Shown here one piece after another: positions 24,945 through 63,928 of a DNA stretch of 64,000 nt. A model generated the notes under the pieces. It had not been told where the DNA came from. It saw only the letters and a list, made by a program, of their open reading frames with translations, and did not search any database. Within the stretch, counting starts at the first letter, position 1. Each line of letters begins with the position of its first letter. Both the position numbers and the translations under genes were made by a program. This DNA comes from Candidatus Roizmanbacteria bacterium RIFCSPHIGHO2_02_FULL_40_13b (lineage in GTDB: Bacteria > Patescibacteriota > Microgenomatia > UBA1406 > HO2-37-13b), in the NCBI GenBank assembly GCA_001789445.1, contig MFZQ01000014.1:11557-75556 (forward strand). Direction: 5' to 3'.

Positions 24945-25912
24945 GACTAAAAAAAAGTTATATATTTATTTGCATTTTCGTAATTATTTCTATCGGATTC
25001 TTCCTTTTTTACAAGGAAGGAAGTTTACCGGTAAATAAAACGGATAAAGGAACAAGACTTTTTGTGATAAATCGTGGGGATGGCCTTATTAATATCACTA
25101 ATCGGCTTGATAAAGAGGGTCTGATACGAAGTAAAACTGTTTTCTACATAATCACTCGACTTAACGGACTAGAGAATAAAATAGAGGCTGGTGATTTTCG
25201 CCTTTCACCTTCAATGACCAGTGAACAGATTGCAAAAACCCTTACGAAAGGTACACTTGATATATGGGTCACCGTTATTGAAGGGTTGCGCCGGGAAGAA
25301 ATTGCCGATATTCTTTCTGAAACCCATGGAATTGACAAATTGGAATTTATGGATAAGGCAGTTGAAGGATATCTTTTCCCCGATACGTACCTTATTCCAA
25401 AAGATGCATCTGTTGATATGATTCTTTCAATTTTTAAAAATAATTTCGATTCAAAATATAACGGAAATATAGAGTCACTTGCACAAAAAAAACAGCTGAA
25501 TCGAATGCAAGTTATTACCTTAGCATCCCTTGTTGAAAAAGAAGCTCGCAGTTTTGAAAATCGAACAATTGTGGCATCAATTATGCTAAAACGATATAAA
25601 AATGGGTGGCCTTTAGATCTCGATGCCACTGTCCAGTATGCACTTGGTTACCAATCCGATTCAAAAACATGGTGGAAAAAAAATTTGACAAGAGAAGATA
25701 TTAAAATAAATTCTTTATACAATACCTATAAAAATGCCGGTCTTCCACCAGGTCCAATTTGCAATCCGGGTCTTGATTCAATAAAAGCAGTCCTTGCCGC
25801 AGACGAAAAAACTCCCTATTGGTTTTACATTTCCTCTCGGGACGGATCGGTTATGCATTATGCGCAAACACAAGAAGAACATGATGAGAATATTAGAAAA
25901 TATTTAAATTAA
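24941..25912 (+). CDS. mltG: Endolytic murein transglycosylase MltG (YceG)
   Basis: N-terminal TM and the YceG-like signature YNTYKNAGLPPGPICNPGLDSIKAVL. Confidence 0.85.
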   Translation: MRLKKSYIFICIFVIISIGFFLFYKEGSLPVNKTDKGTRLFVINRGDGLINITNRLDKEGLIRSKTVFYIITRLNGLENKIEAGDFRLSPSMTSEQIAKTLTKGTLDIWVTVIEGLRREEIADILSETHGIDKLEFMDKAVEGYLFPDTYLIPKDASVDMILSIFKNNFDSKYNGNIESLAQKKQLNRMQVITLASLVEKEARSFENRTIVASIMLKRYKNGWPLDLDATVQYALGYQSDSKTWWKKNLTREDIKINSLYNTYKNAGLPPGPICNPGLDSIKAVLAADEKTPYWFYISSRDGSVMHYAQTQEEHDENIRKYLN

Positions 25913-28026
25913 ATATCCCCCATCGCTTCTGGTTCAGCACCATCATCTATCGCACTCTGGCGACGAAGCACTTCGCGCGGTTTTGATCCTTCGGCGCCGC
26001 TCACAAATCCTTCTTCTTCAAGCTGATCAAGAAGCTTAGCCGCACGAGCGTACCCAATAGAAAGTTTGCGTTGTAAAAGCGAAGACGATGCTTTTCCAAA
26101 TGAACTTATTACATCGATAGCTTGATTGAAAAGTGCATCATGGTTTTCGTTCCCACTCCCAACTGTCCTTCCCCCACTTCCTTTGAGTGCAACATCTTGA
26201 TTTACAACTTCTTCAGTGTAGTGAACTGCAGGAACATTTTGCTTTATGAAAGTTACAACAGCCGCCGCATCTTTTTCTGAAAGAAAAGGACTTTGAATAC
26301 GACGTGGTTTAGCTTGATCTGGAGGCAAAAATAACATATCTCCTTTCCCTAAAAGCTTTTCAGCGCCTGGCGTGTCGAGGACAACACGAGAGTCGATCAT
26401 ACTCGCTACATTGAATGCTATCCGTGACGGGATATTTGCCTTCATGAGTCCGGTAATAACATCGACCGATGGTCGCTGGGTAGCAAGAATCAGATGAATT
26501 CCGGTTGCACGTGCCATTTGGGCAATTCTAGTAATAAGCTCTTCTGCATCCCGCGCAGAAAACATCATAAGGTCTGCAAGCTCATCTATAATAAAAATTA
26601 TGTACGGATACTTTTCCACTCCAGTTATTTGATTATATCCTTCAATATTTCGAGCACTCATTTTGGCAAATTGTTTGTACCTATTTTCCATCTCGCCCAC
26701 TGTCCATTTGAGTGCAGAAATTATCTTTTCTGGATCAACAATAACTTCAGTCATCAGATGGGGAATTCCGTTGTACAGTCCTAGTTCAACCCGTTTTGGA
26801 TCAACAAGGATGAGACGAAGGTCAGATGGTTTGGTACGAAACAAAAATGAACAAATCCACGCATTTAGAATAACTGACTTTCCCGCCCCTGTTGTTCCGG
26901 CAATAAGTACATGTGGCATTCTGCCAATATCAACAACTTGTGGGGTTCCCGAAACATCCAGGCCCAAGGGAACAAGGAGAGGGTTATTACTTTTTGTCAT
27001 TATATCCTCGCCAAGCATGCGTTTGAGTGCGACAATTTCCCCTTTCTTATTTGGAATTTCTATCCCAACAAGTGAGCGGCCTGGAATTGGTGCCTCTATA
27101 CGAACTTGGCCTGTAGATGCTGCAATAGCAAGCGCAAGATCATTTGAAAGTGCAGTAATTTTTGAAAGTTTGGTTCCCATGACAATCTCAAGCGCGTATT
27201 GAGTAACCGTGGGACCTTTATTTACCTCAACAACTCGGGCACGAATTCCAAAACTATCAAGTGTGCGCTCAATAATTTCAGAGTTCTTCTTAACATCGCC
27301 ACGGTCTGCCTCGGTTTGTTCAATATCAGAAAGTAGAGAAAGTGGTGGAAAAACCCACTGCGACTGTGTTTTGGAAAGTGGGCGTATCGTCAGTTCGCCT
27401 TGACTATTGGGCAGTGCATGTGTTGGTACAGTAACAGGTCTTCTCTTATCTTGAATGTATTCATTATCTGATTCTGATTTTGATTGTCGTTTTGAAAATA
27501 AATCCGATTGTTTTTTTAGTCCTTCAATGAATGATTTAACTATTCCAGCAATGAAAACGAGGAACGCATCGATCGAAGTATTTAAAAATACAATCCCTCC
27601 AACAACAATCGTCGTAAAGAGGATAATGAGAGCACCAAAAAGTGAAAAGTCTTGTTTGAGATTATCAAATACAACATTTCCATAACTACCTGAATGTGTA
27701 AGTCCAAGTACACCGATAAAAAGAAGTAAAAGTCCAAGTGTAATATGAGGTCTAATAATTTTCAGTTTTTTTGAATTAAAAAAATGGGTGCCTAAAAGAA
27801 GTAATAAAATAGGAACAAATAGTGAAACTGTTCCAAATCCATCTGCGAGCTTAGCGTTAATGGTAATTAAAATCGATCCTTGTTGTAAATATGAAAGCAA
27901 AAGGAGTAAAGAAAACCCAATAAGAAGGAAGCCAAGTATCGTAAAAAAAGAGCGCTGATTAATTTTTAATTTCAAGAAAGGGAGTTTGATTTTGAAAAAT
28001 TTCTTAGTCCTGGCCATATACATCAA
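25909..28026 (-). CDS. ftsK: DNA translocase FtsK/SpoIIIE
   Basis: N-terminal TM segments, Walker A GTTGAGKSV, and a C-terminal gamma winged helix (LLQRKLSIGYARAAKLLDQLEEEGFV). Confidence 0.9.
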   Translation of the reverse strand: MMYMARTKKFFKIKLPFLKLKINQRSFFTILGFLLIGFSLLLLLSYLQQGSILITINAKLADGFGTVSLFVPILLLLLGTHFFNSKKLKIIRPHITLGLLLLFIGVLGLTHSGSYGNVVFDNLKQDFSLFGALIILFTTIVVGGIVFLNTSIDAFLVFIAGIVKSFIEGLKKQSDLFSKRQSKSESDNEYIQDKRRPVTVPTHALPNSQGELTIRPLSKTQSQWVFPPLSLLSDIEQTEADRGDVKKNSEIIERTLDSFGIRARVVEVNKGPTVTQYALEIVMGTKLSKITALSNDLALAIAASTGQVRIEAPIPGRSLVGIEIPNKKGEIVALKRMLGEDIMTKSNNPLLVPLGLDVSGTPQVVDIGRMPHVLIAGTTGAGKSVILNAWICSFLFRTKPSDLRLILVDPKRVELGLYNGIPHLMTEVIVDPEKIISALKWTVGEMENRYKQFAKMSARNIEGYNQITGVEKYPYIIFIIDELADLMMFSARDAEELITRIAQMARATGIHLILATQRPSVDVITGLMKANIPSRIAFNVASMIDSRVVLDTPGAEKLLGKGDMLFLPPDQAKPRRIQSPFLSEKDAAAVVTFIKQNVPAVHYTEEVVNQDVALKGSGGRTVGSGNENHDALFNQAIDVISSFGKASSSLLQRKLSIGYARAAKLLDQLEEEGFVSGAEGSKPREVLRRQSAIDDGAEPEAMGDI

Positions 28027-52048: not shown

Positions 52049-52666
52049 TTACGGCATCGTTTCGACCATCATTTTGTAATAGACTTGACGGGTAAGCTCG
52101 ACATCTTTCATACAATACACGCAGATTTCCTCTATCTTCCCTTCTTGAAAATATGGCCAGACTTGCGACCCATCCATAACATCTTTTGACGTTGGAAATC
52201 CAAATACTTTGGCCAAGGTATCGAGCTTTACATTTTTTCCATACCCCCATTTTCCCCACTCGCTCATCGTATCAAAAAACGGCATACTGCGATATTTGGC
52301 AAATGAAAGCTCAAGGCGCGGTTTGACTCCATGAATGATGGAGCGCTGATAGATGAAGGGAAGGTCAAACTCAAAAATATTGTGTCCGATAAATTGATAG
52401 ACATCTGCGGCAATTCTCCAAAAATCGGAGAGCATTTGTTTTTCATCCCCTTTCAAAACACCTCTTTCTATTTGAGAACCTTCTTTGATGTATCCAATGC
52501 AACAAATACGACCAAATGTACCATCAAACGATGTTTTGGCAATCAGCTCATCAACCTTCTCAACTATAAGACCTTCGCCATCTTTCTTACTTTTGATTTC
52601 CAGATATAAATTCTTCATCGACTCATCAACCGGAATTGTTTCGATGTCAAAAAAGAGTTTTGTCAT
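52049..52666 (-). CDS. DEDD-family 3'-5' exonuclease (RNase H-like; PolB-exo-like)
   Basis: Exo I motif LFFDIETIP, with further acidic motifs (HNIFEFD, YCMKD). Confidence 0.6.
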   Translation of the reverse strand: MTKLFFDIETIPVDESMKNLYLEIKSKKDGEGLIVEKVDELIAKTSFDGTFGRICCIGYIKEGSQIERGVLKGDEKQMLSDFWRIAADVYQFIGHNIFEFDLPFIYQRSIIHGVKPRLELSFAKYRSMPFFDTMSEWGKWGYGKNVKLDTLAKVFGFPTSKDVMDGSQVWPYFQEGKIEEICVYCMKDVELTRQVYYKMMVETMP

Positions 52667-52750: not shown

Positions 52751-52963
52751 TCAGGGGCAGGGGGCGAACTGGCAATTTGGACCACTCCGGCCGACAGCGG
52801 ATCCATCGGGACAAAGCTTTGCTTCCATAGTACAAGCTATTTGACCTTGTCCTTGCCAGGGGAAAATGTAACACCAGTCATCTTCACAGCCCCACGTAAT
52901 TAGCACTACGAGTAGAATTACTACAGCCACAACTACCATCACCACCACTCTCATGATATTCAT
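52751..52963 (-). CDS. Small secreted or membrane-anchored cysteine-rich peptide (70 aa, 6 Cys in the mature part)
   Basis: An N-terminal hydrophobic segment followed by CEDDWCYIFPWQGQGQIACTMEAKLCPDGSAVGRSGPNCQFAPCP. Local GC is higher than in the flanks. Confidence 0.35.
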   Translation of the reverse strand: MNIMRVVVMVVVAVVILLVVLITWGCEDDWCYIFPWQGQGQIACTMEAKLCPDGSAVGRSGPNCQFAPCP

Positions 52964-53019: not shown

Positions 53020-53646
53020 TCAAGGTTGGGAAATATTTTTTTGAACATTAGAGTTCTTCAAAACTTTGACTGGTTTATCCCCGTCTGCAGGATCAATAAT
53101 GCCTGCAATTTCAAGTGCATCAATGAGACCTGCTGCACGTGCATACCCAATACTAAGCTTTCTTTGTAAAAGTGGTGTAGAAACTTTTCCAAATTCTTGT
53201 GCTAATCTTACCGCATCATCATATACTGGGTCAGTTTTAGGATTAAGAATCTCCCGAGGTTTTGCGCCATCAACCGGACTTACGATTCCTCTTTTTTCCA
53301 TCATATCTACTAACTTTGAAGCTCTGGCATATCCAATATCTAGTTTTCTCTGTAGTAATGAAGTTGATACTTTCCCTGCCTGCATAATTGCAATCACTGC
53401 TTTGGAGTACAGGGGATCAAAATTAACATCAAGATCATCTTCTGTTTGATCTATAAATTGTTCTTCTGTAGTTGGATTAAGTCGGGAAGTAAGAATTTGA
53501 ACTGTTCTATTGAGATCAGAAATTTTCTCCTCATTTTTTTCTTGCAATTCTCGTGAAGTACTTTCGAGCCTCCATACCTCATACAAAAGGTACACTAGTA
53601 ATGCAAATATGAGAAACAAAGTAATTTGGGTAACAGTCATAACCAT
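53020..53646 (-). CDS. Membrane-anchored protein with two tandem FtsK-gamma (KOPS-binding winged-helix) domains and no motor domain
   Basis: N-terminal TM plus coiled coil, then two repeats: DPLYSKAVIAIMQAGKVSTSLLQRKLDIGYARASKLVDMMEKRGIVSPVDGAKPREIL and DPVYDDAVRLAQEFGKVSTPLLQRKLSIGYARAAGLIDALEIAGIIDPADGDKPVKVL. Both match the ftsK C-terminus at 25909-26100. Confidence 0.65.
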   Translation of the reverse strand: MVMTVTQITLFLIFALLVYLLYEVWRLESTSRELQEKNEEKISDLNRTVQILTSRLNPTTEEQFIDQTEDDLDVNFDPLYSKAVIAIMQAGKVSTSLLQRKLDIGYARASKLVDMMEKRGIVSPVDGAKPREILNPKTDPVYDDAVRLAQEFGKVSTPLLQRKLSIGYARAAGLIDALEIAGIIDPADGDKPVKVLKNSNVQKNISQP

Positions 53647-53734
53647 TTATTCAAATGGGTAGTTGGGATAAGTATAGCATAGTGAGGGGTGGATTTTTGG
53701 ATAAGAGGGGTGTAGATCATGGGTAAAATCAAGT

Positions 53735-56047
53735 TCATAAATAAGCTGCCTTAGCATATAAATCTTTCTGGAACGCAAAAAAAATTGATCGGATATCCTC
53801 TACACTTCCAAGTGATTGTTCGGCATTAGCAATGGCATGATATTTTATATTTAATAATATTGGCAACATTTCTTCATCAAGTTCTTCGACCCCTTTTTCT
53901 TCGTATTTTGACAGCACAAAATCTAAAAATTCTTTTTGTTTTTCATCGAGTCCCTCAAAAATTTTGTCCTTTGATTGTGCTATTCTTTGTGTTCTTGAAA
54001 TCGGCTGTGTTAAGAATGAAATATATGTTAAAACGTCAAATAAATCACTTTGCTCAGCATCGATCAATTTTTGCAATGTTTCTAATTCATCTTTACCATA
54101 ACCTCTTTCAGCAATCTTTTCTAAGAATGCTTTGCGTGTGGTTGGGTTTGACCAAATTTTTCTTAACTCTTCCTCATTCTTAAAAAAGTCTGGCAAGACA
54201 CCGAACATATTATCCATAAACTCATTTACAGAGATTGGCTTTCCATCAGGACCCCAAAATGATGTAGAAATCATATGTTTTATCTCACGTTCTTTACCAT
54301 CTCGTAATTTTATTTTTAATTTTTCCTTTGGTTCCACTTGATCTTTGTCACCAATAACTAAACTCTGATCATTAACTGGCTCCGGATATTTAATTACCTT
54401 TGGCTCGCTCTCTGCTGTATCATCTACGGGTTCCCCGTCCCATTCCGAATCAGAAAAATGATGATAAGCATCAACAAAATCAAAAATTGTAAAATATTCT
54501 TTACCATCAAAAAGTCTCGTCCCACGACCAATAATTTGTTTAAACTCAATTATAGAATTGACTGGCCGCATCAAAACAATATTGCGAATATTACGTGCAT
54601 CAACACCGGTTGAAAGCTTTTGTGATGTGGTTAAAATAGTGGGAATTGTTTTTTCATTATCTTGAAACTCTCGTAAAAATTGCTCACCTCGAAATCCATC
54701 GTTTGCTGTCACTCGCACACAATAATTTGGATCTCTACTGTCTTTCATTTGATTTACCAAATCACGAATTGCCAAAGCGTGGTCTTGTGTTGCACAAAAT
54801 ATAATCGTTTCTTCGTTTTGATTTATTTCGTCCAAGATTATGCGAACTCGTTTAGCTTCGCGTTCTTTAATAAAAATAATTTTATTAAAGTCGGGTTCTT
54901 CATAAATTTTGCCTTCCTCTACTTCTCCTTCAATTATTTGATCATCAGAAACGTACATATAGTCATCAAGAGTCGTTTTGATTCTTTTGACTTTAAATGG
55001 TGTTAAAAACCCATCGTTTACGCCTTCCTTGAGTGAATAAATATAGACTGGTTCGCCAAAATATTTATACGTATCTACGTTATCTTTTCGCTTTGGTGTA
55101 GCTGTTAATCCTAGTTGAACAGCTGGCGAAAAATATTCCAAAATCCCCCGCCAATTACTTTCATCGTTAGCGCCACCTCGATGACATTCGTCGATAATAA
55201 TAAAATCAAAAAAATCGGATGGGTAATCACCAAAATAAGGAGTACCGTTTGAACCACTCATAAACGTTTGGAAGATTGTAAAAAAAATACTTCCGCTCAT
55301 TGGCACAGCGCCTCTTCTTCTAATATCCAATGGATTGATTCGTACAAGCGCGTCTTCGTCAAAAGCAGAAAAAGCATTAAATGCTTGATCAGCTAATATA
55401 TTTCTGTCTGCCAAAAATAAAATTCTTGGCCGACGTGTACTATCACGTTTTAAATTCCATCGGGTCTGAAACAGTTTCCAAGCAATCTGAAAAGCTACGG
55501 CCGTTTTTCCGGTTCCAGTTGCCATAGTCAAAAGAATTCTGTTTTTTTCTTCAGCTACCGCGTTTAAAACATTATTAATGGCAATTTCTTGATAATAGCG
55601 GCTGCCATATTCGCCCTCATTTGGCACACGGGCAAATTTTTCTTTCCATTCATTTTGATCCGAATAGGTCTTGTTCCACAGCTCATCTGGAGTGGGAAAA
55701 TTGACAACTGGTCCTTCATGTCCAGTTTTCATGGACATTTCATAAATCTCACGGCCATTAGATGAATACGTAAAATCAATATGCATTTTTCCGGCATATG
55801 CTTTAGCCTGAGCAACTCCCTCACCACATTCTTGATCTTCAGCTTTAGCTTCAATCACACCAATTTTGTGATTTTTATACACAAAAATATAGTCAGCTAT
55901 CTCTGGCTTGCTCCTAGTTCCACCAATTTGGATTTTACCATCAGTAATCCGAAATTCTCGAAGAACTTTTGATCCCTCGACAACTCCCCACCCGCTCGCT
56001 TTAAGCTTTGGATCAATAAGTTCTGCCCGTGTTTCCGCTTCGTTCAT
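53735..56047 (-). CDS. hsdR: Type I restriction enzyme R subunit HsdR
   Basis: N-terminus MNEAETRAELIDPKLKASGW, Walker A MATGTGKT, DECH box and helicase motifs. 770 aa. Confidence 0.9.
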   Translation of the reverse strand: MNEAETRAELIDPKLKASGWGVVEGSKVLREFRITDGKIQIGGTRSKPEIADYIFVYKNHKIGVIEAKAEDQECGEGVAQAKAYAGKMHIDFTYSSNGREIYEMSMKTGHEGPVVNFPTPDELWNKTYSDQNEWKEKFARVPNEGEYGSRYYQEIAINNVLNAVAEEKNRILLTMATGTGKTAVAFQIAWKLFQTRWNLKRDSTRRPRILFLADRNILADQAFNAFSAFDEDALVRINPLDIRRRGAVPMSGSIFFTIFQTFMSGSNGTPYFGDYPSDFFDFIIIDECHRGGANDESNWRGILEYFSPAVQLGLTATPKRKDNVDTYKYFGEPVYIYSLKEGVNDGFLTPFKVKRIKTTLDDYMYVSDDQIIEGEVEEGKIYEEPDFNKIIFIKEREAKRVRIILDEINQNEETIIFCATQDHALAIRDLVNQMKDSRDPNYCVRVTANDGFRGEQFLREFQDNEKTIPTILTTSQKLSTGVDARNIRNIVLMRPVNSIIEFKQIIGRGTRLFDGKEYFTIFDFVDAYHHFSDSEWDGEPVDDTAESEPKVIKYPEPVNDQSLVIGDKDQVEPKEKLKIKLRDGKEREIKHMISTSFWGPDGKPISVNEFMDNMFGVLPDFFKNEEELRKIWSNPTTRKAFLEKIAERGYGKDELETLQKLIDAEQSDLFDVLTYISFLTQPISRTQRIAQSKDKIFEGLDEKQKEFLDFVLSKYEEKGVEELDEEMLPILLNIKYHAIANAEQSLGSVEDIRSIFFAFQKDLYAKAAYL

Positions 56048-56059: not shown

Positions 56060-56590
56060 CTATGTAAAGAGCTTTTTAACCTCTTTTGCCACTGAAAAAA
56101 CAAATTCAAGATCTGCTTTTGTGTAATCTTTAATCTCTTTATGTATGCCAATATGCTGTTCGTTTCTCAATTGTCTAACTCTATCGATTTTTTTAAATAA
56201 TTCATCTTCTATGCAGTCTTTAGCTTTCAAAAAATTATTAATATTGCCCAGATTAAGTTTTTCAAATTTTATTTTTTCAGGATTTTTCATGTAATCTCCA
56301 GCTATAATTTGATGACTATCAGTAACTTCGTGTAATACTATTTTATTTGTGAAATCCCATTTGTAGATTACCAAATCTTCTTTTGTATATTTCTTCTCCA
56401 ATAGATATAAAAGCAATGCCTCAATAATTGATGCTGTGTAAATAATTACAGTTTTTCTAAAACTGCTTTTGGCTAAGTCACTATAACTCTTTGATTCTGA
56501 AAATGGAATTAGATCAAGAATATGATTAAAGGCAATATCAAGATTTTCTCTCAAAACTAAGTCGCTAACAAAGGGGAAGTTACTAGCCAT
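56060..56590 (-). CDS. Hypothetical protein inserted between hsdS and hsdR; possible HEPN-like (R-x3-6-H) motif
   Basis: 176 aa, alpha-helical, C-terminal RVRQLRNEQHIG. No confident family. Confidence 0.3.
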   Translation of the reverse strand: MASNFPFVSDLVLRENLDIAFNHILDLIPFSESKSYSDLAKSSFRKTVIIYTASIIEALLLYLLEKKYTKEDLVIYKWDFTNKIVLHEVTDSHQIIAGDYMKNPEKIKFEKLNLGNINNFLKAKDCIEDELFKKIDRVRQLRNEQHIGIHKEIKDYTKADLEFVFSVAKEVKKLFT

Positions 56591-56594: not shown

Positions 56595-56789
56595 TCAAGG
56601 CTTGAGCATCTCAGAAAGAGATCTGTATCCTTTTTGTTTTAAATAATTACCAAGCTTCATATTTGATTTTACTCCCAAATCAATGCCATATTTTTTTTCA
56701 ATTGTTCCGACTTTTGTATCAAACCTTTTTGGAGTGAACTGACCCTTGTTATTCTTAGCTCGCGAGGTCTTTGTTTGTTTTGTATTCAT
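56595..56789 (-). CDS. Small basic protein (64 aa)
   Basis: Lys-rich with pI well above 10. Lies in the R-M operon between hsdS and the HEPN-like gene. Confidence 0.3.
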   Translation of the reverse strand: MNTKQTKTSRAKNNKGQFTPKRFDTKVGTIEKKYGIDLGVKSNMKLGNYLKQKGYRSLSEMLKP

Positions 56790-56822: not shown

Positions 56823-58001
56823 TCACAATTCTCCGGCAAACGCCTTCCTGAGCACAGATTTCTTCATCTCCTCCAAATCAGCCAATTTTTGTTTATAAAT
56901 AACTTCCAGTTTTTTAGTCTCAGCCGAAAGCGCATCAAGTTTGATAACAATAGATTTTTGTTCGGAAATATTAGGCATTGGAATAACAAAATCTAAAACC
57001 AAATTCATATTCGCTCTTGGCATTCTGGCTCCTGTCCATGTAGCATTTATTTGTTTAACTGTTTCTTTGGAAATAAGCCAATAAAATAAAAAATTTCTGT
57101 AAAGGTTTTTATTAGGCTTGATAGGGAAAATCTCTGTTGAACAATGACCTTCAAAGTTTGGTAATAGCACTTTATTGAGATATGGTCTTAGTCTTCCATA
57201 TAAAACATGCTCACCACTAAAATGGAAAGTATTGCTTTTTACTTTCAATGGATTCAACGAGCCAAGAAATTTACCAGTATTAGATTCTATATCTTCAAGT
57301 CCAACATACGGCAGATTTGTTTTTTTGTACGGAGTTTTATCATATTTACACACCTCATCCAAGGTATTCTCCTCCCAATCTTTCCCCGGATTAGCAAAAA
57401 CACTCTGCAAATATGATTCAAAAAGCTCTTTGGAGTTTTGAAGATTTTTTTCAGTGTTTTCTTTCGCCTTCGCCACTTTCCCAAAAACCTCATCTAGTTT
57501 TTTTACAATTCGTGTTTGCTCACTGAATGATGGCAACGGTGCCTCAATATCTTTATATGCCTGCATATTTAGATTCCTTATACCAGTTGAGTGACTTTGC
57601 ATTCTCTCTGTTATGCCAGATATATAAGAATAAAATAGAAACTTATGTAGGAAATTAAAATCCAACTCACTTTGATCTTTAATTCTGATCACAGATGTAA
57701 AATTACTAAAAGAAAACTCGCCATCTTTTTTATTAAAAATAATGACACGTCCAACTGGCTGTTTCGGTCCACCCCCTGATTTCTCCAGAACAATATCGCC
57801 ATACATCAGTTTACGATTTGCAAATTGCTTTTTCTCAACATCTAAATAAGCTACGTCAGAGTCGTCTAAACGGCCATCTTTAGTAATGTTTGTATTACGA
57901 ATCACACCAATATTTATATATGGTGGTTCTTTTCCTTTCCATAGGCCGTTATAGAAATCACAGGTCTCACTAAGTTTTTTGGTTTGCCAATTATTTTTCA
58001 T
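56823..58001 (-). CDS. hsdS: Type I R-M specificity subunit HsdS
   Basis: Two target-recognition domains separated and followed by conserved coiled regions. 392 aa. Flanked by hsdM and hsdR. Confidence 0.85.
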   Translation of the reverse strand: MKNNWQTKKLSETCDFYNGLWKGKEPPYINIGVIRNTNITKDGRLDDSDVAYLDVEKKQFANRKLMYGDIVLEKSGGGPKQPVGRVIIFNKKDGEFSFSNFTSVIRIKDQSELDFNFLHKFLFYSYISGITERMQSHSTGIRNLNMQAYKDIEAPLPSFSEQTRIVKKLDEVFGKVAKAKENTEKNLQNSKELFESYLQSVFANPGKDWEENTLDEVCKYDKTPYKKTNLPYVGLEDIESNTGKFLGSLNPLKVKSNTFHFSGEHVLYGRLRPYLNKVLLPNFEGHCSTEIFPIKPNKNLYRNFLFYWLISKETVKQINATWTGARMPRANMNLVLDFVIPMPNISEQKSIVIKLDALSAETKKLEVIYKQKLADLEEMKKSVLRKAFAGEL

Positions 58002-59439
58002 AATATGAACGCAACAATTTTATGGAGTCAACTAACTTAGTATTAAAATCTTTTCCTCTGTTCGACGGATAATGAATACAGTTTCTTATGTATGTTGGCA
58101 GAGTTATCTTCTTATCTCCTTTTTTTAATGGGTACTCTTGTTCGAGTTTTTTTACCTGCACAAAATAACCATTATCAAATTCTTTTATCCCAACAGCGTC
58201 TTTATTATTTTCATCGCCATAAACCGCTCTGAGATGATCGTATAATTCGTTATGATAATCAGTGCTAGAAATTTCAAAAACATCGTACGTCACACTTGCA
58301 TATGTTGATGCTTTTTTTTCAAATTGTTTTTTTTCTGTTTTTTCTTTCTTTGTTTCCTTGTTAGGATTTTTAAATATTTTGTAGTTTCTGCTTAAGTCGT
58401 CCTTATCTATCATGTAGTTAGAATGTGTAGCAAAAAAAACAATATTATTTCTTCCACTCCGAGTAATCTTCACCAACTCTTTTAACAAGTCTTCTTGAGC
58501 TTGCGGATGAAGATGGGTTTCTGGTTCATCGAGTAACAAGATTGAGTTAGAGAGTTCGTTGTTTCTATTTTGCGCAGATACTGTTAAAAGAAAAGACACG
58601 AACTGCTTAAATCCATCGCTTCTCTGATCAGCAGTTTTTGCCTTTCCTTTCGTACCGATATCGTGTACATGAAAATTTATTAAACCATCTGATATGTCAA
58701 ATGTTACTTTGATCGGGTGTTTCGGCCAGGCTGTATTAATATGTTCGCTTACTTTATCACTCAGTTCAGTTTTCAACTGTTCGCGCTCGGTAGATTCTTT
58801 AGCTAGGTCTACTCTTGCCTTAATGGCATCCTGCCCAATAATCCCAGCAAGTGCAAAACAATTTTTTAATGGCACTGAGATATCATCTGGTGTACTTGCA
58901 AATTGATCTAAATCTATTGGTTGGGAAATTAAATATCGATCCTCAGCTGTCCAAAAAATAGTTTTATGGGCTTTGTTTAAAATTGATTCCTTTATAAGCT
59001 CTTGAGCTGCAGATTTATTTTCATAATCATCCGTAATATTAATAATTTCTAATTTAATTTCAGACTGGCTTGGATTTGCATAATTAAAACCAATAACAAG
59101 TTTGATGTCTTTTATGTCAACGTCTTTTGTATCTATTGGTGTTTCTTGGGATTTTAAAAGCTCTTTATATTGATTTGCTTCATCCTCTTCTAAAGAGTAT
59201 GAATATTCAATCTCTATTGACTTCAATCTATCTTTAAAATCGTTCTTTAGTGGTAAAGGATTACCTTTTTCATCTTTAAGACCATCTTTTAATGCCAATG
59301 CTTTTAGAATGGTTGACTTGCCCGCCTCATTGACACCGATCAAACCATAAGTAAAAGTATTATCACTAAGAGGTATAATATCAAAAGATATTTCTTCTAT
59401 ACTTCTGTAATTCTTTATTTGTATTGACTTTAATATCAT
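57991..59439 (-). CDS. ABC/SMC-like AAA ATPase (AAA_21/OLD-PrrC-like N-domain) with an uncharacterised C-terminal domain, inserted between hsdM and hsdS
   Basis: Walker A GVNEAGKST, Walker B/D-loop LLLDEPETHLHP, H-loop FFATHS. The ~130 aa C-terminus has RNCIHYPSN and YDHLRAVYGDE. Confidence 0.7.
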   Translation of the reverse strand: MILKSIQIKNYRSIEEISFDIIPLSDNTFTYGLIGVNEAGKSTILKALALKDGLKDEKGNPLPLKNDFKDRLKSIEIEYSYSLEEDEANQYKELLKSQETPIDTKDVDIKDIKLVIGFNYANPSQSEIKLEIINITDDYENKSAAQELIKESILNKAHKTIFWTAEDRYLISQPIDLDQFASTPDDISVPLKNCFALAGIIGQDAIKARVDLAKESTEREQLKTELSDKVSEHINTAWPKHPIKVTFDISDGLINFHVHDIGTKGKAKTADQRSDGFKQFVSFLLTVSAQNRNNELSNSILLLDEPETHLHPQAQEDLLKELVKITRSGRNNIVFFATHSNYMIDKDDLSRNYKIFKNPNKETKKEKTEKKQFEKKASTYASVTYDVFEISSTDYHNELYDHLRAVYGDENNKDAVGIKEFDNGYFVQVKKLEQEYPLKKGDKKITLPTYIRNCIHYPSNRGKDFNTKLVDSIKLLRSYYEK

Positions 59440-59442: not shown

Positions 59443-60894
59443 TTATAAATATTTACTGATGCTATTTAATATCTGTCCACTTTTCTGATCCAAGCTTCTC
59501 ATTTCTTCCAAAATCTCCTTTGGATTGCGTAATGGTGCCGAGCCAATTTTGTTTGGATTTTTTACCGATAAGTCAAATGTTTTTTGATCGATATTTTTAA
59601 CATCAATGCTCCACGAGTTTTCGCTATCTGCTTTTGTTTTTTGTAGTTCGACAAATTCTGCCAAGTCCGCTTCGCTTAATGGGTTGCCCTTACCGAGGTT
59701 GCGGGTGAGGTTGAGTTGGTAAAACCAAACTTTTTTTGTTGATGCGCCTTTTTCAAAAAATAATACAACGGTTTTAACCCCTGCTCCGGCAAATACACCA
59801 CCTGGGAGATCAAGCACTGTGTGTAGATTGCAACTTTCTAGAAGAAGTTTCCGCAGCGAAACAGAGGCATTGTCGGTATTAGAAAGAAACGTATTTTTGA
59901 TAACAATACCAGCCTTACCACCTGCTTTTAGAATTTTGATGAAGTGTTGAAGAAAAAGAAACGCTGTTTCGCCTGTTTTAATTGGGAAGTTTTGTTGAAT
60001 TTCTCGTCCAATTCCAGCGCCGAAAGGTGGATTGGCCAAGACTATGTCATATCGATCTTTTTCTTGAATATCATTGATATTTTCAGCCAATGTATTCATG
60101 TGCCGAATATTTGGCGCTTCAATACCGTGCAAAATCATATTCATAATGCCTATGATATATGCGAGTGATTTTATTTCTTTACCATAGAAAGTTTTGTTTT
60201 GCAGTATTGATATCTGACTTGATGAAAGCTTTGACTGATTTTGAGTGAGGTAGTTAAATGATTCAACCAAAAAGCCTGCACTTCCACACGCTCCATCGTA
60301 AATTGTCTCACTAATTTTCGGCGCAACTACTTTTACAATCGTTTTAATAAGTGGACGTGGTGTGTAATACTCGCCACCATTTCGGCCCGCGTTGCCCATG
60401 TTTTTTATTTTGGCTTCGTAAAGATGTGAAAGTTCGTGTTTCTCTTCATATAGTCGGAAGTGCATGCCGTCAACGATATTTAAAATCTCCCGCAATTTAT
60501 ACCCACTGGAAATTTTATTTTTGAGTTCATGAAAAATTTCGCCAATCTTATATTCAATTGTATTTGGATCTTCCGCTCTAAATTTCTTGAGATATGGAAA
60601 CAGATTATTATTTACAAAATCTTTTAGATCGTCACCATCAAGCGCTTTATTATGATCGAGTTTGCCTTCGTCGTTCTTTGGACACGCCCATATATTCCAC
60701 TGGTATTCCGGAGACAAAATATATTTATATTCCTTCCCAGCTAGTGCCGCTTCCGTTCGTTTTGTTTCCTCCAGACCATCAAGATATTTCAAAAAGAGAA
60801 CCCATGAAGTTTGTTCCACATAATCAAGCTCTGTTCCACAACCGGAATCGGTATGAAGAATATTGTCAATGTTTTTGAATGATTGCTCGAACAT
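59443..60894 (-). CDS. hsdM: Type I R-M N6-adenine DNA methyltransferase HsdM
   Basis: VLANPPFG catalytic motif, an AdoMet-binding motif, and a typical HsdM N-domain. Confidence 0.9.
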   Translation of the reverse strand: MFEQSFKNIDNILHTDSGCGTELDYVEQTSWVLFLKYLDGLEETKRTEAALAGKEYKYILSPEYQWNIWACPKNDEGKLDHNKALDGDDLKDFVNNNLFPYLKKFRAEDPNTIEYKIGEIFHELKNKISSGYKLREILNIVDGMHFRLYEEKHELSHLYEAKIKNMGNAGRNGGEYYTPRPLIKTIVKVVAPKISETIYDGACGSAGFLVESFNYLTQNQSKLSSSQISILQNKTFYGKEIKSLAYIIGIMNMILHGIEAPNIRHMNTLAENINDIQEKDRYDIVLANPPFGAGIGREIQQNFPIKTGETAFLFLQHFIKILKAGGKAGIVIKNTFLSNTDNASVSLRKLLLESCNLHTVLDLPGGVFAGAGVKTVVLFFEKGASTKKVWFYQLNLTRNLGKGNPLSEADLAEFVELQKTKADSENSWSIDVKNIDQKTFDLSVKNPNKIGSAPLRNPKEILEEMRSLDQKSGQILNSISKYL

Positions 60895-60936
60895 AGGTTA
60901 GTTTCTAAATATGGCTCCATTCTACCACTCCATAGC

Positions 60937-61191
60937 CTATTTATACACTCCTTGTCTGTGGCCGATTTTGATAACTAAAATAAGCAATTGATGTTGATAA
61001 ATTTGATAGATGATTCGGTAAGGCCACATACGAAAACTATATGATCCTTTATATTCTCCTTCTAATTTTTTACCAATAAGTGGATTTATCGATAATGAAA
61101 TGAATGCGGAAAGAATTCTGTTGTATTCTTTTTTTGGAATTTTTTTAAGTTTTTTTTCGACTGTTGGTTTTAGTTTTACTTGGTATGCCAT
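60937..61191 (-). CDS. Type II toxin, RelE/ParE family
   Basis: 84 aa; YRIIYQI...IGHRQGVYK is RelE-like. Confidence 0.7.
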   Translation of the reverse strand: MAYQVKLKPTVEKKLKKIPKKEYNRILSAFISLSINPLIGKKLEGEYKGSYSFRMWPYRIIYQIYQHQLLILVIKIGHRQGVYK

Positions 61192-61504
61192 ATTTCTTTG
61201 CGACTTTATCAGAAACTAAAAAGCCCTCTTGTTTCAGTAGGGCATCTAGTGTGACCCAATTTTTATACTCTCCTGATTCAAACGCTTTATGTGCTTCTTC
61301 AATATCTTTTGAAAGATCAGGAAATTGTTCCATTACCTCGAATGTCTCTTGCCATGATTCAAACTCTTCAGCTGATATAAGTACCGCTTTGGGCCGACCT
61401 TTTTCAGTAAAAGTATAGTGCACTCCCGGCTGTTGTACCGCTTCGGCAATATCAAAAATATTCTTTCGCGCTTCTGTTATTGGAATAGTTGTTTTTGTGT
61501 TCAT
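61145..61504 (-). CDS. Type II antitoxin, Phd/YefM family
   Basis: IPITEARKNIFDIAE...PKAVLISAEEFESWQETFEVM. Its 3' end overlaps the toxin gene by 47 nt. Confidence 0.6.
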   Translation of the reverse strand: MNTKTTIPITEARKNIFDIAEAVQQPGVHYTFTEKGRPKAVLISAEEFESWQETFEVMEQFPDLSKDIEEAHKAFESGEYKNWVTLDALLKQEGFLVSDKVAKKYGIPSKTKTNSRKKT

Positions 61505-62217: not shown

Positions 62218-62260
62218 GCTCTATTCTACCACTCGTCCTTCCCAAATGCGCTGGGATGTG

Positions 62261-62389
62261 CGTGGATCCCGAAACGAGTTCGGGATGACGGCGGGCAAGG
62301 CACGTTCAGGATGACCCCACTTCGTCACGTTCATGTAAACCGAACGTGACTACGAGGGGCAAGCAGAGGGTGGGATCAGGATGACAGAG
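62261..62389. repeat. Cluster of three GC-rich repeat units with core TTC(A/G)GGATGAC, plus two perfect hairpins
   Basis: AGTTCGGGATGACGG (62277), CGTTCAGGATGACC (62304), GATCAGGATGACAGAG (62374). Hairpins ATCCCGAAacgagTTCGGGAT and GTCACGTTCatgtaaaccGAACGTGAC. Confidence 0.55.
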
Positions 62390-63206
62390 AGGGCTTAAGT
62401 TTCTTGATGGATGGATTTCCCAGGAGTGATTTCATTTGTGAAATTGCACTCTGATTGAGCTGAATTAATCTTTCGGGCTGAGAAATTCCTTTTTTAATGA
62501 GTTCTGCGTTTATTCCTTCCAGATTTGCGAGTACTACCAGTTTTGTTACATCTTCATAATCGCGAATATTTCCATCTTTTTTAGGATTTTGATCTCGCCA
62601 ATCCTTAGCAGTCCTACCAAATAACGCACTATTTAATACATCGGCTTCTGTTGCATAGACGACAGTGATAGATTGTTTCGAAATGTTTGGTGGGATCAAG
62701 TGTATCATAATCGCATCGGTATGGATTCGATAATTAATTTTAGTGAGCTGTCTTTTTATATCCCAACCCAAAGCCAATCGTTCATTTTCTTCTGATTTAA
62801 GTCGTTGAAATTCCTTGATTAAATACAACTTAAATTCTGGGCTAATCCAACTGGCAAATTCAAAGGCAATGTCGCGGTGCGCAAAAGTACCTCCATATCT
62901 ACCAGCCGACGACCGAATACCTATCGCATTTGTTTTTTTAATCCACTTTGAAGATGATACTATAAAGCCATTTGAGCCGGCTTCGTTTTTAATGTTATTG
63001 AATTCCATAACATTAAAATTTGGATTATGCACCTGTTCCCAAGTGCCCATAAATTGAATTGTATACTTCGTAGATAGCCAATTCACAATTACTATACCCG
63101 TTGCTTCACGATCTTTGAATTTGGCCATATCAGTCAAAGAAATATATTCTTCCTCATTGTCTTTCACGACTGCTATTTGTAGACCTTGAGCAATAATTTT
63201 TTTCAC
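62376..63206 (-). CDS. KilA-N domain protein (phage/virus-type DNA-binding)
   Basis: N-terminus ISLTDMAKF and GGTFAHRDIAFEFASWISPEFKLYLIKEF, which is the KilA-N/APSES-like signature. Confidence 0.6.
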   Translation of the reverse strand: MKKIIAQGLQIAVVKDNEEEYISLTDMAKFKDREATGIVIVNWLSTKYTIQFMGTWEQVHNPNFNVMEFNNIKNEAGSNGFIVSSSKWIKKTNAIGIRSSAGRYGGTFAHRDIAFEFASWISPEFKLYLIKEFQRLKSEENERLALGWDIKRQLTKINYRIHTDAIMIHLIPPNISKQSITVVYATEADVLNSALFGRTAKDWRDQNPKKDGNIRDYEDVTKLVVLANLEGINAELIKKGISQPERLIQLNQSAISQMKSLLGNPSIKKLKPSLSS

Positions 63207-63334: not shown

Positions 63335-63406
63335 TCCCCTGTAGCTCAACGGTAGAGCAGGATCCTGTTAAGATCAAGGTTCGTGGTTCGAATCCACGCG
63401 GGGGAG
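63335..63406 (+). tRNA. tRNA-Asn (anticodon GTT)
   Basis: Acceptor TCCCCTG/CGGGGGA, D-arm GCTC-AACGGTA-GAGC, anticodon loop CTGTTAA, T-arm CGTGG-TTCGAAT-CCACG. Closely matches E. coli tRNA-Asn. Confidence 0.85.
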
Positions 63407-63928
63407 CCTAGATGGATGAGTGTTCAATTCCACAAGGTATGAAAAGGGGAATCTGTGCTCTACAACAACCTCTTTGTTAGTCAAAAAAAGGTTCGAAGAT
63501 ACCTTCCTCAAAAAAAGATATTGTGGTAGCTCTTTTGCCTTCAAAAAATACTTTTCAGCGTTCTGACAGAGCAAAAAGAAGTTCGAAGCTTTTTTCTGCC
63601 AATCAAGGCTATTTTTTTCCAGCTTATTTTGTGTCCCCAAAAGCTGAATCCTGTCATTTTCTTTTTTCTGTTTGTATTCCTCATATACTTCATCAGGACT
63701 CTTGTCCCCTATGGCTGTTATTTTCCCAGCAATCCGCATCTCAAAGAGATTCTTTAGCTCGGTATCAATTTGACCAATACGTTTACTTATATTGACCAAT
63801 AATTTATTCTGATCCTCCTTCAATGCAGAATACTCCCGATCCATCTCCTCAAGTAGAAATTCAGAAAGATCCATGCCTATGTCGATAGGTGCAACTACCT
63901 TGTCAGCAAACTCCTGTACAAGGTCCAA
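63374..63928 (-). CDS. Hypothetical coiled-coil protein; the 3' end of the ORF runs antisense through tRNA-Asn
   Basis: ORF only. The last ~11 codons are the reverse complement of the tRNA, so the real stop and extent are doubtful. Confidence 0.2.
   Translation of the reverse strand: MDLVQEFADKVVAPIDIGMDLSEFLLEEMDREYSALKEDQNKLLVNISKRIGQIDTELKNLFEMRIAGKITAIGDKSPDEVYEEYKQKKENDRIQLLGTQNKLEKNSLDWQKKASNFFLLCQNAEKYFLKAKELPQYLFLRKVSSNLFLTNKEVVVEHRFPFSYLVELNTHPSRLPRVDSNHEP

What the first reader, a model, noticed from the sequence alone, without database searches (positions are those of the whole stretch)
53020..53646. Stand-alone membrane protein with two tandem FtsK-gamma (KOPS-reading) winged-helix domains
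Two consecutive ~58 aa repeats each reproduce the FtsK gamma-domain signature (VSTSLLQRKLDIGYARASKLVD… and VSTPLLQRKLSIGYARAAGLIDALE…). Both are nearly identical in pattern to the C-terminus of the bona fide ftsK in this window (LLQRKLSIGYARAAKLLDQLEE). There is an N-terminal TM anchor and coiled coil, but no motor domain. The gene sits directly downstream of hsdR. A membrane-tethered sequence-specific dsDNA reader with no translocase is unusual. It could tether the chromosome or foreign DNA, or regulate FtsK.
Basis: seen in the sequence. Interest (0 to 1): 0.65.

Follow-up and report, generated by a model that had tools for sequence, protein, structure and literature searches.

The report
Motorless twin FtsK-gamma protein beside restriction genes
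A small membrane-anchored protein made of two copies of the DNA-reading "gamma" domain of the chromosome pump FtsK, but with no pump, belongs to an uncharacterised family that nearly always sits next to restriction-modification genes, so the domain seems to have been reused for defence or mobile-element functions.

Summary
ORF 53020-53646 (-) encodes 208 aa: an N-terminal transmembrane helix, a helical stalk, a disordered linker and two FtsK_gamma winged helices (Pfam E 1.9e-47, two stretches). The modelled fold superposes on KOPS-bound FtsK gamma at 1.0 Å. There is no motor.

It is not an ftsK remnant:
- The window holds an intact ftsK (25909-28026).
- Homologs at 35-56% identity keep the same architecture.
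- dN/dS is 0.10-0.15 among one clade's orthologs.

The organism is a Candidatus Roizmanbacteria bacterium (CPR).

New findings:
- Nine of ten distinct loci of this coiled-coil + twin-gamma family have an R-M methylase or specificity gene within 5 kb. The systems are type I, type III, type ISP/IIG or SNF2+MTase. None of 151 ftsK loci do.
- One clade sits in conjugative elements beside a MOBC relaxase and type IV secretion genes.
- Motorless proteins with 2-4 gamma domains form over 100 sequence clusters. Some are fused to Mrr nuclease, TIR, Schlafen or GIY-YIG-like domains.

Best reading (confidence about 0.4): a multivalent dsDNA-binding accessory of restriction/defence islands. Function and DNA target are untested. 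I found no published characterisation.

The parts
53020..53646 (-). Gene for the 208-aa TM + coiled-coil + twin FtsK-gamma protein (identical to hypothetical protein A2799_04370 of a Candidatus Roizmanbacteria bacterium)
53575..53643 (-). N-terminal transmembrane helix (about residues 2-24), predicted N-out/C-in
   Evidence: Hydropathy and K/R distribution. Part of AF2 helix 3-54.
53485..53574 (-). Amphipathic helical stalk (residues 25-54), a probable coiled-coil oligomerisation region
   Evidence: AF2 helix 3-54. Heptad-like spacing I42/L45/V49/L52/L56 read from the sequence. Conserved in alignment A1. The oligomeric state is not tested.
53425..53484 (-). Acidic disordered linker (residues 55-74)
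   Evidence: pLDDT below 50 for residues 56-73
53236..53424 (-). FtsK-gamma winged helix 1 (residues 75-137). The positions of E. coli R1300/E1303/E1306 are K/D/E, as in the host FtsK.
   Evidence: PMC2680272
53050..53235 (-). FtsK-gamma winged helix 2 (residues 138-199). The 9-residue stretch RKLSIGYAR is identical to the host FtsK. The R1300 position is Gly.
   Evidence: PMC5052618
53671..53679 (-). Candidate extended -10 promoter element TGCTATACT, about 25 nt upstream of the ATG
   Evidence: Read from the sequence. Clade-B homologs have TGCTATAGT at the same place. Not tested.
53684..53712 (+). Two copies of GAGGGGTG, 21 bp apart, flanking the -35 position. These are the only two copies in the 64-kb window. 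Possible operator.
   Evidence: Not conserved in other family loci, so weak.
53735..56047 (-). hsdR, type I restriction subunit, directly upstream and co-directional
56823..58001 (-). hsdS specificity subunit
57991..59439 (-). AAA_15/AAA_21 ATPase (Old/AriA/GajA-like) embedded in the hsd operon
59443..60894 (-). hsdM methyltransferase
25909..28026 (-). Intact host ftsK (alpha, motor and single gamma domains), used as the comparison. It is not part of the locus.

Best explanation
The gene is functional and conserved. It encodes a small bitopic inner-membrane protein. A short N-terminus faces outward. A cytoplasmic helical stalk probably oligomerises it. Two FtsK-gamma winged helices, joined by a 5-8 residue linker, give an oligomer four or more dsDNA-binding heads at the membrane surface.

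It is not part of the chromosome translocase. It belongs to a small family (coiled coil + twin gamma, with or without the TM helix) found in CPR-type bacteria. That family travels with ATP-dependent, DNA-translocating restriction-modification systems on variable islands and conjugative elements.

The most likely role is a multivalent DNA-binding accessory of the neighbouring restriction/defence module. It would bind duplex DNA, probably a G-rich octamer of the KOPS type that the host FtsK gamma also reads. It would then either hold DNA at the membrane for the restriction complex or mark or block DNA against it.

Shown: domain identity, fold, absence of a motor, purifying selection in one clade, the genomic association, and fusions of twin gamma to nuclease and TIR effectors in related proteins. 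Inferred: DNA binding by this protein, its sequence target, oligomerisation, and any functional coupling to R-M.
For: **Domain identity and fold.**

**The family is real and constrained.**
- Fourteen aligned members share 39-55% identity to the window protein, with an invariant IGYARA core in both repeats.
- dN/dS is 0.10-0.15 among clade-B orthologs.

**Association with R-M.** An R-M methylase or HsdS gene lies within 5 kb in 9 of 10 distinct family loci:
- window: type I
- L003, L087, L096: type I
- L001, L085: SNF2 + N6_N4 MTase
- L007: type III Mod + Res
- L088: ResIII + Eco57I, type ISP/IIG
- L097: type I + UvrD + DUF2779, with the twin-gamma gene 8 bp behind in the same direction

The same queries found nothing in 151 ftsK loci covering 1,069 kb of flank. 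The R-M types and gene orders differ between loci, so the linkage has been re-formed repeatedly.

**Fusions in other motorless twin-gamma proteins.** Partners include Mrr_cat restriction nuclease (P0160, P0221, P0240), TIR_2 (P0014, P0216), DUF4062, Schlafen AlbA_2 and T5orf172/MUG113. In those proteins twin gamma acts as a targeting or sensing module.

**Residues on the DNA and XerD surface.**
- The 9-mer equivalent to E. coli 1289-1297 is RKLDIGYAR in gamma 1. It is RKLSIGYAR in both gamma 2 and the host FtsK.
- The KOPS-blind positions R1300/E1303/E1306 are K/D/E in both gamma 1 and the host FtsK (PMC5052618; PMC2680272).

**Experimental precedent.** Engineered covalent gamma trimers bind KOPS DNA detectably where single gamma domains hardly do (PMC3384302).

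**Local setting.** The window locus is a defence island. It holds a type I R-M system with an embedded Old/AriA-like ATPase, a Phd/ParE pair, and a KilA-N protein matching PADLOC candidate PDC-S22 at E 1e-126.
Against: - No experiment exists on any family member.
- PADLOC has no model for the protein.
- Adjacency could reflect shared residence in the few variable islands of small CPR genomes. My control (ftsK, a core gene) does not control for that.
- In clade B the R-M genes look like variable cargo inserted about 75 bp upstream of a conserved twin-gamma promoter. There the protein's fixed partners are a 134-aa REC-like protein and a MOBC relaxase, not the R-M genes.
- One family locus (L092) has no R-M gene within 8 kb. 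It has a MOBC relaxase and a DUF87 ATPase instead.
- Orientation relative to the R-M genes varies: co-directional, divergent or convergent.
- The family sample is small (10 distinct loci).
- The queries used came from the family loci themselves. Only L096 is a non-trivial hit.
Confidence: 0.4

Rival explanations
1. Mobile-element maintenance or transfer factor. The protein would serve conjugative or integrative elements in one of two ways. It could be a membrane-anchored DNA-recruiting partner of the relaxase and coupling ATPase. Or it could be an element-encoded substitute for FtsK gamma that switches on XerD, as in elements that exploit Xer recombination. On this view the window copy is an orphan on an island.
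For: - Clade-B homologs head a conserved module of twin gamma, a 134-aa REC-like protein and a Replic_Relax protein. TrbC, TrbL, a TraC-like gene and an 851-aa coupling-type ATPase lie within 10 kb.
- Replic_Relax (PF13814) is classed as the MOBC relaxase family in PMC5357655.
- An independent locus (L092) has a MOBC relaxase and a DUF87/TrwB-like ATPase nearby.
- Isolated gamma, or covalent 3x gamma supplied in trans, restores XerCD/dif recombination. A 9-residue gamma peptide is enough to stimulate it (PMC3384302, PMC5052618).
- That 9-mer in gamma 2 is identical to the host FtsK's.
Against: - The window has no homolog of the 134-aa protein, the relaxase or any T4SS gene (blastp).
- The window has no integrase among the ORFs scanned.
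- There is no dif-like site beyond chance and no flanking direct repeats.
- Three further family loci (L007, L088, L097) have R-M genes, and no conjugation genes were found among the neighbouring genes scanned.
- Membrane anchoring and a stalk are not needed for Xer activation.
Confidence: 0.22
2. Transcriptional controller of the neighbouring R-M or island genes, analogous to C-proteins. A coiled-coil dimer of winged helices would bind operator repeats and time the expression of restriction relative to modification.
For: - Two copies of GAGGGGTG, 21 bp apart, flank the -35 position of the gene's own candidate promoter. They are the only copies in 64 kb.
- Weak secondary Pfam matches to the MarR, TrmB and HTH_27 winged helices.
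Against: - The repeat is not conserved in any other family locus.
- The recognition-helix region is nearly invariant across family members that sit next to unrelated R-M systems, and it stays close to FtsK gamma at about 50% identity. Operator-specific regulators normally diverge there.
- A membrane anchor is atypical for such regulators.
Confidence: 0.12
3. Core chromosome function. The protein would tether KOPS-bearing chromosomal DNA to the membrane (Noc- or RacA-like), or compete with or regulate FtsK loading.
For: - Gamma 1 shares the K/D/E recognition positions with the host FtsK.
- The cytoplasmic heads are membrane-anchored.
- Multi-gamma constructs bind KOPS (PMC3384302).
Against: - Distribution is sparse and island-bound.
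- The gene sits in variable regions and conjugative elements, never beside division or segregation genes in the loci seen.
- Several family members lack the TM helix.
Confidence: 0.1
4. Non-functional leftover of a duplicated ftsK 3' end.
For: About 50% identity of each repeat to the host FtsK gamma.
Against: - FtsK in this genome has one gamma domain. This protein has two, plus an unrelated N-terminus.
- Only 88 bp separate it from hsdR, which leaves no room for motor remnants.
- The architecture is conserved at 35-56% identity across genomes.
- dN/dS is 0.10-0.15 in clade B.
- It has its own promoter-like element.
Confidence: 0.02

Closest known systems
Gamma subdomain of FtsK/SpoIIIE (E. 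coli and P. aeruginosa FtsK; PDB 2VE9, 2J5P, 5DCF)
   Same: - Same Pfam family.
- Same three-helix winged-helix fold (rmsd about 1 Å).
- Conserved alpha2-alpha3 surface (QR..IGY.R), which in FtsK contacts both KOPS DNA and XerD.
   Different: - No alpha/beta motor and no 4-TM N-terminal domain.
- Two gamma domains in tandem on one chain.
- A single-pass anchor plus a stalk.
- Encoded on a defence or mobile island beside R-M genes, in addition to a normal ftsK elsewhere in the genome.
Engineered covalent gamma trimers (3-gamma; Nolivos et al. 2012, PMC3384302)
   Same: - Several gamma domains on one polypeptide without a motor.
- Experimentally these bind KOPS-containing DNA better than single gamma domains.
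- They activate XerCD/dif recombination in trans.
   Different: - Artificial, soluble and three copies with glycine-rich linkers.
- The natural protein has two copies, a very short linker, a coiled-coil stalk and a membrane anchor.
- The natural protein's activities are untested.
Phage FtsK_gamma proteins and the small terminase with an N-terminal FtsK_gamma domain (phages Sam46/Sam112, PMC8190038)
   Same: A gamma domain used outside a translocase as a portable DNA-recognition module. That paper states that the role of stand-alone gamma genes in phages is unknown.
   Different: - Those have a single gamma domain, fused to Terminase_2 or free-standing in phage genomes.
- No full-length relative of the window protein was found in IMG/VR, INPHARED phages or PLSDB plasmids.
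Genes embedded in or linked to type I R-M loci (for example PrrC in the prr locus and the rlo genes of Campylobacter; from my own knowledge, not checked here)
   Same: A non-R-M gene recurrently placed inside or beside hsd operons. The window's hsd operon also carries an Old/AriA-like ATPase.
   Different: No sequence relationship. Those are nucleases or ATPases, whereas this is a DNA-binding protein with no recognisable effector domain.
Streptomyces TraB, with a C-terminal winged helix that reads 8-bp clt repeats, and membrane tethers such as Noc and RacA (from my own knowledge, not checked here)
   Same: A winged-helix or HTH domain reads short repeated DNA motifs at the membrane, for DNA transfer or positioning.
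   Different: TraB carries its own FtsK-like motor. Noc and RacA belong to other folds and are core chromosomal functions.

Membership tests
FtsK_gamma domain family (PF09397) | Profile match above the curated threshold | tested here: met
   159 bits against a cut-off of 30.6, E 1.9e-47, two stretches
FtsK_gamma domain family (PF09397) | Three-helix winged-helix fold superposable on solved gamma domains | tested here: met
   AF2 model against 2VE9/2VE8: rmsd 0.9-1.0 Å over 58 columns, target TM-score 0.82-0.92
FtsK_gamma domain family (PF09397) | Conserved alpha2-alpha3 surface (E. coli 1288-1297, QRQFRIGYNR) and recognition-helix residues R1300/E1303/E1306 | tested here: inconclusive
   Gamma 1 reads QRKLDIGYAR with K/D/E. 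Gamma 2 reads QRKLSIGYAR with G/D/E. The host FtsK reads QRKLSIGYAR with K/D/E (PMC5052618, PMC2680272). These match the host's own gamma but not E. coli's, and what the CPR variants recognise is unknown.
FtsK_gamma domain family (PF09397) | Sequence-specific binding of a polar 8-bp motif (KOPS/SRS) | not testable with these tools
   Needs EMSA, SELEX or ChIP. The 64-kb window is too short for a skewed-octamer analysis.
FtsK/SpoIIIE DNA translocase | RecA-like motor domain (PF01580) and alpha domain (PF17854) | tested here: not met
   No match in the 208-aa protein. Both are present in the host ftsK at 25909-28026.
FtsK/SpoIIIE DNA translocase | Multi-pass N-terminal membrane domain | tested here: not met
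   A single hydrophobic segment, residues 2-20
Type I restriction-modification system (as an accessory) | Recurrent genomic linkage to R-M genes | tested here: met
   9 of 10 distinct family loci against 0 of 151 ftsK loci. The partner can also be type III, type ISP/IIG or SNF2+MTase, so the link is not specific to type I.
Type I restriction-modification system (as an accessory) | Physical or functional interaction with HsdR/M/S | not testable with these tools
   Needs pull-down, two-hybrid or restriction assays
Known anti-phage defence proteins (PADLOC-DB 2.0) | Match to any defence-system model | tested here: not met
   0 families at E <= 0.01
Conjugative-element DNA-processing module (as in clade-B homologs) | Adjacent MOBC relaxase, REC-like partner and T4SS genes | tested here: not met
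   Met for L001, L003 and L085. The window has no homologs of these genes.
Xer activation factor of an element that exploits Xer recombination | Element flanked by dif-like sites | tested here: not met
   One pattern match in 64 kb against 1.38 expected, and it is far from the locus. No flanking repeats. The CPR dif consensus is unknown, so the test is weak.
Xer activation factor of an element that exploits Xer recombination | Binds and activates XerD | not testable with these tools
   Only the conservation of the 9-mer relative to the host FtsK could be checked

The most novel reading that the evidence does not exclude
Defence and restriction systems may have borrowed the FtsK gamma reader to tell host chromosome from foreign DNA. 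A motorless, multivalent gamma protein, or a gamma pair fused to Mrr, TIR or Schlafen effectors, would recognise the chromosome's polar KOPS-type octamers. That would play a role like Chi does for RecBCD. It would stop or license neighbouring DNA-translocating restriction enzymes, protecting self DNA during establishment of a newly acquired R-M system or after DNA damage.
Probability: 0.12. Interest if true: 0.85.

Novelty: new variant of a known kind. Interest (0 to 1): 0.58.

Why it matters
FtsK gamma is a textbook example of a domain that reads chromosome polarity and switches on dimer resolution. This analysis shows three things about it:

- The domain has a large, unstudied life outside translocases, as tandem copies without a motor.
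- Some of those copies are fused to Mrr nuclease and TIR effector domains.
- One membrane-anchored family is almost always next to restriction-modification genes or inside conjugative elements.

That gives a concrete, testable link between chromosome-architecture motifs and defence or mobile-element biology. It also flags an accessory gene of R-M loci in CPR bacteria, which are reported to rely mainly on R-M systems rather than CRISPR for defence (my own knowledge, not checked here). If the protein is only a generic DNA anchor, the result is still a useful annotation for a 'hypothetical protein' family.

Tried and rejected
- **dif-like site flanking the island.** One match against 1.38 expected, and far away. 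No evidence for an element that exploits Xer recombination.
- **Direct or inverted repeats as island ends, 47-64 kb.** Only short chance-level pairs. One 17-mer pair turned out to be promoter-like elements of hsdM and radC.
- **Homologs of the clade-B ICE genes in the window** (134-aa protein, MOBC relaxase, DUF2958, T4SS). None found except radC.
- **PADLOC match for the protein and its small neighbours.** None.
- **Intrinsic terminator or sigma-70 promoter scan between hsdR and the gene.** Nothing above the shuffle expectation. The extended -10 was read by eye.
- **Over-represented or skewed 7- and 8-mers as a KOPS candidate.** Uninformative at 64 kb.
- **The GAGGGGTG pair upstream of the gene as a conserved operator.** Not found in other family loci.
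- **Full-length relatives in IMG/VR, INPHARED phages and PLSDB plasmids.** Only single-gamma hits.
- **Look-ups meant to see beyond the window end at the tRNA-Asn.** Two failed because the alternative start codons gave non-matching products.
- **Literature searches** for stand-alone FtsK gamma, CPR, R-M/KOPS and defence. Zero hits.
- **Truncated-ftsK remnant.** Rejected (see rivals).
Full report
**1.

The ORF at 53020..53646 on the minus strand starts with ATG and encodes 208 aa containing the quoted peptides. Pfam FtsK_gamma (PF09397) matches with E 1.9e-47 and 159 bits against a cut-off of 30.6, in two stretches. A gamma HMM I built places them at residues 75-137 and 137-199. The NCBIfam FtsK model matches only its last ~60 positions.

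Sequence search of the PDB finds the solved gamma domains of P. aeruginosa and E. coli FtsK and the XerD-gamma fusion 5DCF. An AlphaFold2 model built on a 14-sequence family alignment has mean pLDDT 67.5, with most ten-residue blocks across the two domains at 74-82. It gives one long helix (residues 3-54), a disordered acidic linker (56-73) and two three-helix winged helices. Foldseek's best PDB match is KOPS-bound FtsK gamma, 2VE9, at rmsd 1.0 Å over 58 columns.

No motor or alpha domain is present. The hydrophobic segment is residues 2-20. It has no K/R before it and 2-4 after it in all family members checked, which predicts N-out/C-in topology with the DNA-binding heads in the cytoplasm.

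The gene lies 88 bp downstream of a type I hsdR (53735..56047). The window's true ftsK is at 25909..28026 and has alpha, motor and one gamma domain.

**2. It is not a remnant**

Several results rule out a truncated ftsK copy:

- The exact protein is a 'hypothetical protein' of a Candidatus Roizmanbacteria bacterium, a CPR/Patescibacteria lineage.
- About 18 proteins of 185-219 aa share 38-56% identity over 75-98% of its length.
- The 14 aligned members all show a TM helix, a stalk and two gamma domains, with an invariant IGYARA core in both repeats.
- Other members have the stalk and twin gamma but no TM helix: P0015, P0019, and the proteins of loci L007 and L097.
- Clade-B orthologs have dN/dS of 0.10-0.15.
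- Gamma 1 domains resemble each other slightly more than they resemble gamma 2 domains across the family (52-53% against 46%). This fits an old, stable two-domain arrangement.
- FtsK in this genome has a single gamma domain.
- The 88-bp upstream spacer leaves no room for decayed motor sequence.

**3. Residues that matter in FtsK**

In E. coli the peptide 1289-1297 (RQFRIGYNR) is sufficient to stimulate XerD, and the same surface contacts KOPS DNA (PMC5052618). R1300, E1303 and E1306 together give the KOPS-blind phenotype when mutated (PMC2680272).

| | 9-mer | R1300 / E1303 / E1306 positions |
|---|---|---|
| Host FtsK gamma | RKLSIGYAR | K / D / E |
| Gamma 1 | RKLDIGYAR | K / D / E |
| Gamma 2 | RKLSIGYAR | G / D / E |

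Both heads therefore look like the host's own gamma, with one recognition position lost in gamma 2. What the CPR version of the domain recognises is unknown.

Engineered covalent gamma trimers bind KOPS DNA detectably where single domains barely do. They also restore XerCD/dif recombination in trans (PMC3384302). A natural multi-gamma protein is thus plausibly competent for both activities.

**4. Genomic context of the window copy**

All of these genes are on the minus strand. In window coordinates from high to low they are:

- KilA-N protein, matching PADLOC candidate PDC-S22 at E 1e-126
- radC
- a Phd/ParE pair
- hsdM
- an AAA_15 ATPase (Old/AriA/GajA-like)
- hsdS
- two unknown ORFs
- hsdR
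- the twin-gamma gene
- a 70-aa Cys-rich membrane ORF
- a stand-alone PolB-type exonuclease

A tRNA-Asn lies at 63335-63408. The rest of the window is ordinary chromosome: recF-like, tpi, yceG, dnaJ, ftsK and copper-handling genes.

An extended -10-like element, TGCTATACT, sits about 25 nt upstream of the ATG. Clade-B genes have TGCTATAGT in the same place. The gene therefore probably has its own promoter.

**5. Context of relatives**

*Clade B* (P0003, P0004, P0005, P0010, P0018):

- The gene heads a conserved module of twin gamma, a 134-aa REC-like protein and a Replic_Relax protein.
- A short radC and a DUF2958 gene lie opposite.
- TrbC, TrbL, a TraC-like gene and an 851-aa coupling-type ATPase lie within 10 kb.
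- PF13814 is classed as the MOBC relaxase family (PMC5357655), so these are conjugative elements.
- Directly upstream and divergent lies variable R-M cargo: type I hsdRMS, or SNF2 + N6_N4 methylase, or hsdM adjacent in L096.

*Stalk + twin gamma members without a TM helix:*

- L007 (Levyibacteriota): next to type III Mod + Res.
- L088: next to a 1338-aa ResIII + Eco57I enzyme (type ISP/IIG), with DUF4357 and DUF5677.
- L097: the last gene of an hsdR-hsdM-hsdS-UvrD-DUF2779 array, 8 bp behind the previous gene.
- L092: no R-M gene, but a MOBC relaxase, a DUF87 ATPase and IS elements.

I searched with a fixed set of methylase and specificity-subunit queries. Nine of ten distinct family loci had a hit within 5 kb. 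None of 151 ftsK loci did, across 1,069 kb of flank.

Three caveats apply:

- The queries came from the family loci themselves, so only L096 is a non-trivial hit.
- The control gene is a core gene, so the test does not separate functional coupling from shared island residence.
- The sample is small.

More distant twin-gamma proteins without the stalk have unrelated neighbourhoods.

**6. The wider twin-gamma world**

A profile search of 1.84 billion cluster representatives found 89 proteins at E <= 1e-30. Of the best 150, more than 100 are motorless with 2-4 gamma domains, mostly 130-260 aa. About 35 matched the FtsK motor query, and most of those carry 2-3 gamma domains. Some short entries may be fragments.

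Among 37 longer motorless ones, the fusion partners include:

- Mrr_cat restriction nuclease (4)
- TIR_2 (3)
- DUF4062 (2)
- DUF4236 (4)
- Schlafen AlbA_2
- T5orf172/MUG113
- RNase_T
- DnaJ

Twin gamma is thus used repeatedly as a DNA-targeting or DNA-sensing module of conflict-type effectors.

Phage protein families also contain gamma domains. A phage paper states that the role of stand-alone gamma genes is unknown (PMC8190038). I found no paper that characterises motorless gamma proteins or links them to R-M.

**7. Interpretation**

The best-supported reading is a multivalent dsDNA-binding accessory of restriction/defence islands. It would be held at the membrane in this clade and act on or alongside ATP-dependent, DNA-translocating restriction enzymes (confidence about 0.4). 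How it acts is inference. It could tether incoming DNA, or mark or block chromosomal DNA.

Rivals, in order of my confidence:

- An element-maintenance or transfer factor. It would act with the relaxase and coupling ATPase or as an XerD activator. The clade-B and L092 contexts support this. The absence of conjugation genes, dif-like sites or repeats around the window copy weakens it.
- A C-protein-like regulator. The unique pair of GAGGGGTG repeats over the promoter supports this. Their absence elsewhere and the near-invariant recognition helices weaken it.
There is no positive evidence, and the distribution is sparse and island-bound.
- A pseudogene. Refuted.

**8. Novelty and score**

The domain is well known. 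The motorless, membrane-anchored, tandem architecture and its R-M and ICE association are, as far as I could search, undescribed. I rate it a new variant of a known kind, with interest 0.58.

The most novel reading not excluded is that defence systems use the FtsK gamma reader to recognise chromosome-specific polar motifs as a self signal. I put its probability at about 0.12. It would be of high interest if true.

Noticed in passing
window 53684-53691 and 53705-53712 (+): GAGGGGTG occurs only twice in the whole 64-kb window on either strand. Both copies lie in the 88-bp hsdR/twin-gamma spacer, 21 bp apart, flanking the -35 position of the candidate promoter. The motif is G-rich like KOPS/SRS motifs but is not conserved in other family loci.
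   Followed up: partly
window 57991-59439 (-), 56595-56789 (-), 56060-56590 (-): The type I hsd operon is interrupted by an AAA_15/AAA_21 ATPase with PADLOC matches to Old, AriA and GajA. It also holds two ORFs (64 and 176 aa) with no family match. This may be a second defence module embedded in the R-M locus.
   Followed up: partly
window 62376-63206 (-); tRNA-Asn 63335-63408 (+): A KilA-N protein matches the PADLOC candidate system PDC-S22 at E 1e-126 and sits next to a tRNA-Asn. The sequence beyond the window end could not be fetched, so the extent of the island is unknown.
   Followed up: partly
window about 60937-61504 (-): A Phd/YefM antitoxin and ParE toxin pair lies between radC and hsdM, as seen in the gene calls of the source contig (L090).
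   Followed up: no
window 60914-60930 and 62218-62234: A 17-mer, GCTCYATTCTACCACTC, is repeated just upstream of hsdM and radC. On the coding strand it reads TGGTAGAAT, an extended -10-like element. The twin-gamma gene has TGCTATACT. This suggests promoters without a -35 element are common in this organism.
   Followed up: no
window 52751-52963 (-) and 52049-52666 (-): Directly downstream are a 70-aa ORF with an N-terminal TM helix and six cysteines, and a stand-alone PolB-type 3'-5' exonuclease (DNA_pol_B_exo2). Their relation to the twin-gamma gene is unknown.
   Followed up: no
L085 10641-11965; L003 8644-9969; L001 8644-9971: In the conjugative-element clade the twin-gamma gene is followed by a 134-aa protein that looks like a CheY-type receiver (no Pfam match), then a MOBC (Replic_Relax) relaxase. 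The spacer before the relaxase holds a conserved inverted repeat, CCTTATAAATAAGG, a candidate oriT or operator.
   Followed up: partly
proteins P0128, P0131, P0179, P0223: Some genuine FtsK/SpoIIIE motor proteins carry two or three tandem gamma domains rather than one.
   Followed up: no
proteins P0160, P0221, P0240, P0014, P0216, P0149, P0169, P0027, P0211: Twin gamma domains are fused to Mrr_cat nuclease, TIR_2, DUF4062, Schlafen AlbA_2, T5orf172/MUG113, or DUF4236 + DnaJ. These look like single-chain defence proteins that use gamma as the DNA-binding part.
   Followed up: partly
PLSDB hits H17-H24 (P. aeruginosa plasmids) and Pseudomonas phages H48-H50: A gamma-like stretch lies under genes annotated as 'phosphoadenosine phosphosulfate reductase family protein' on P. 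aeruginosa plasmids. Gamma matches also occur in related Pseudomonas phages. This is another motorless use of the domain.
   Followed up: no
L001 11656-13067: A reverse transcriptase (RVT_1) followed by a bAvd-like gene, which looks like a diversity-generating retroelement, lies in the same Roizmanbacteria conjugative element.
   Followed up: no
L006 (CAYPSA010000002.1): This contig is labelled 'uncultured Gammaproteobacteria', but it carries the same element as the other clade-B loci, one of which is from a Roizmanbacteria MAG. The bin's taxonomic label is probably wrong.
   Followed up: no
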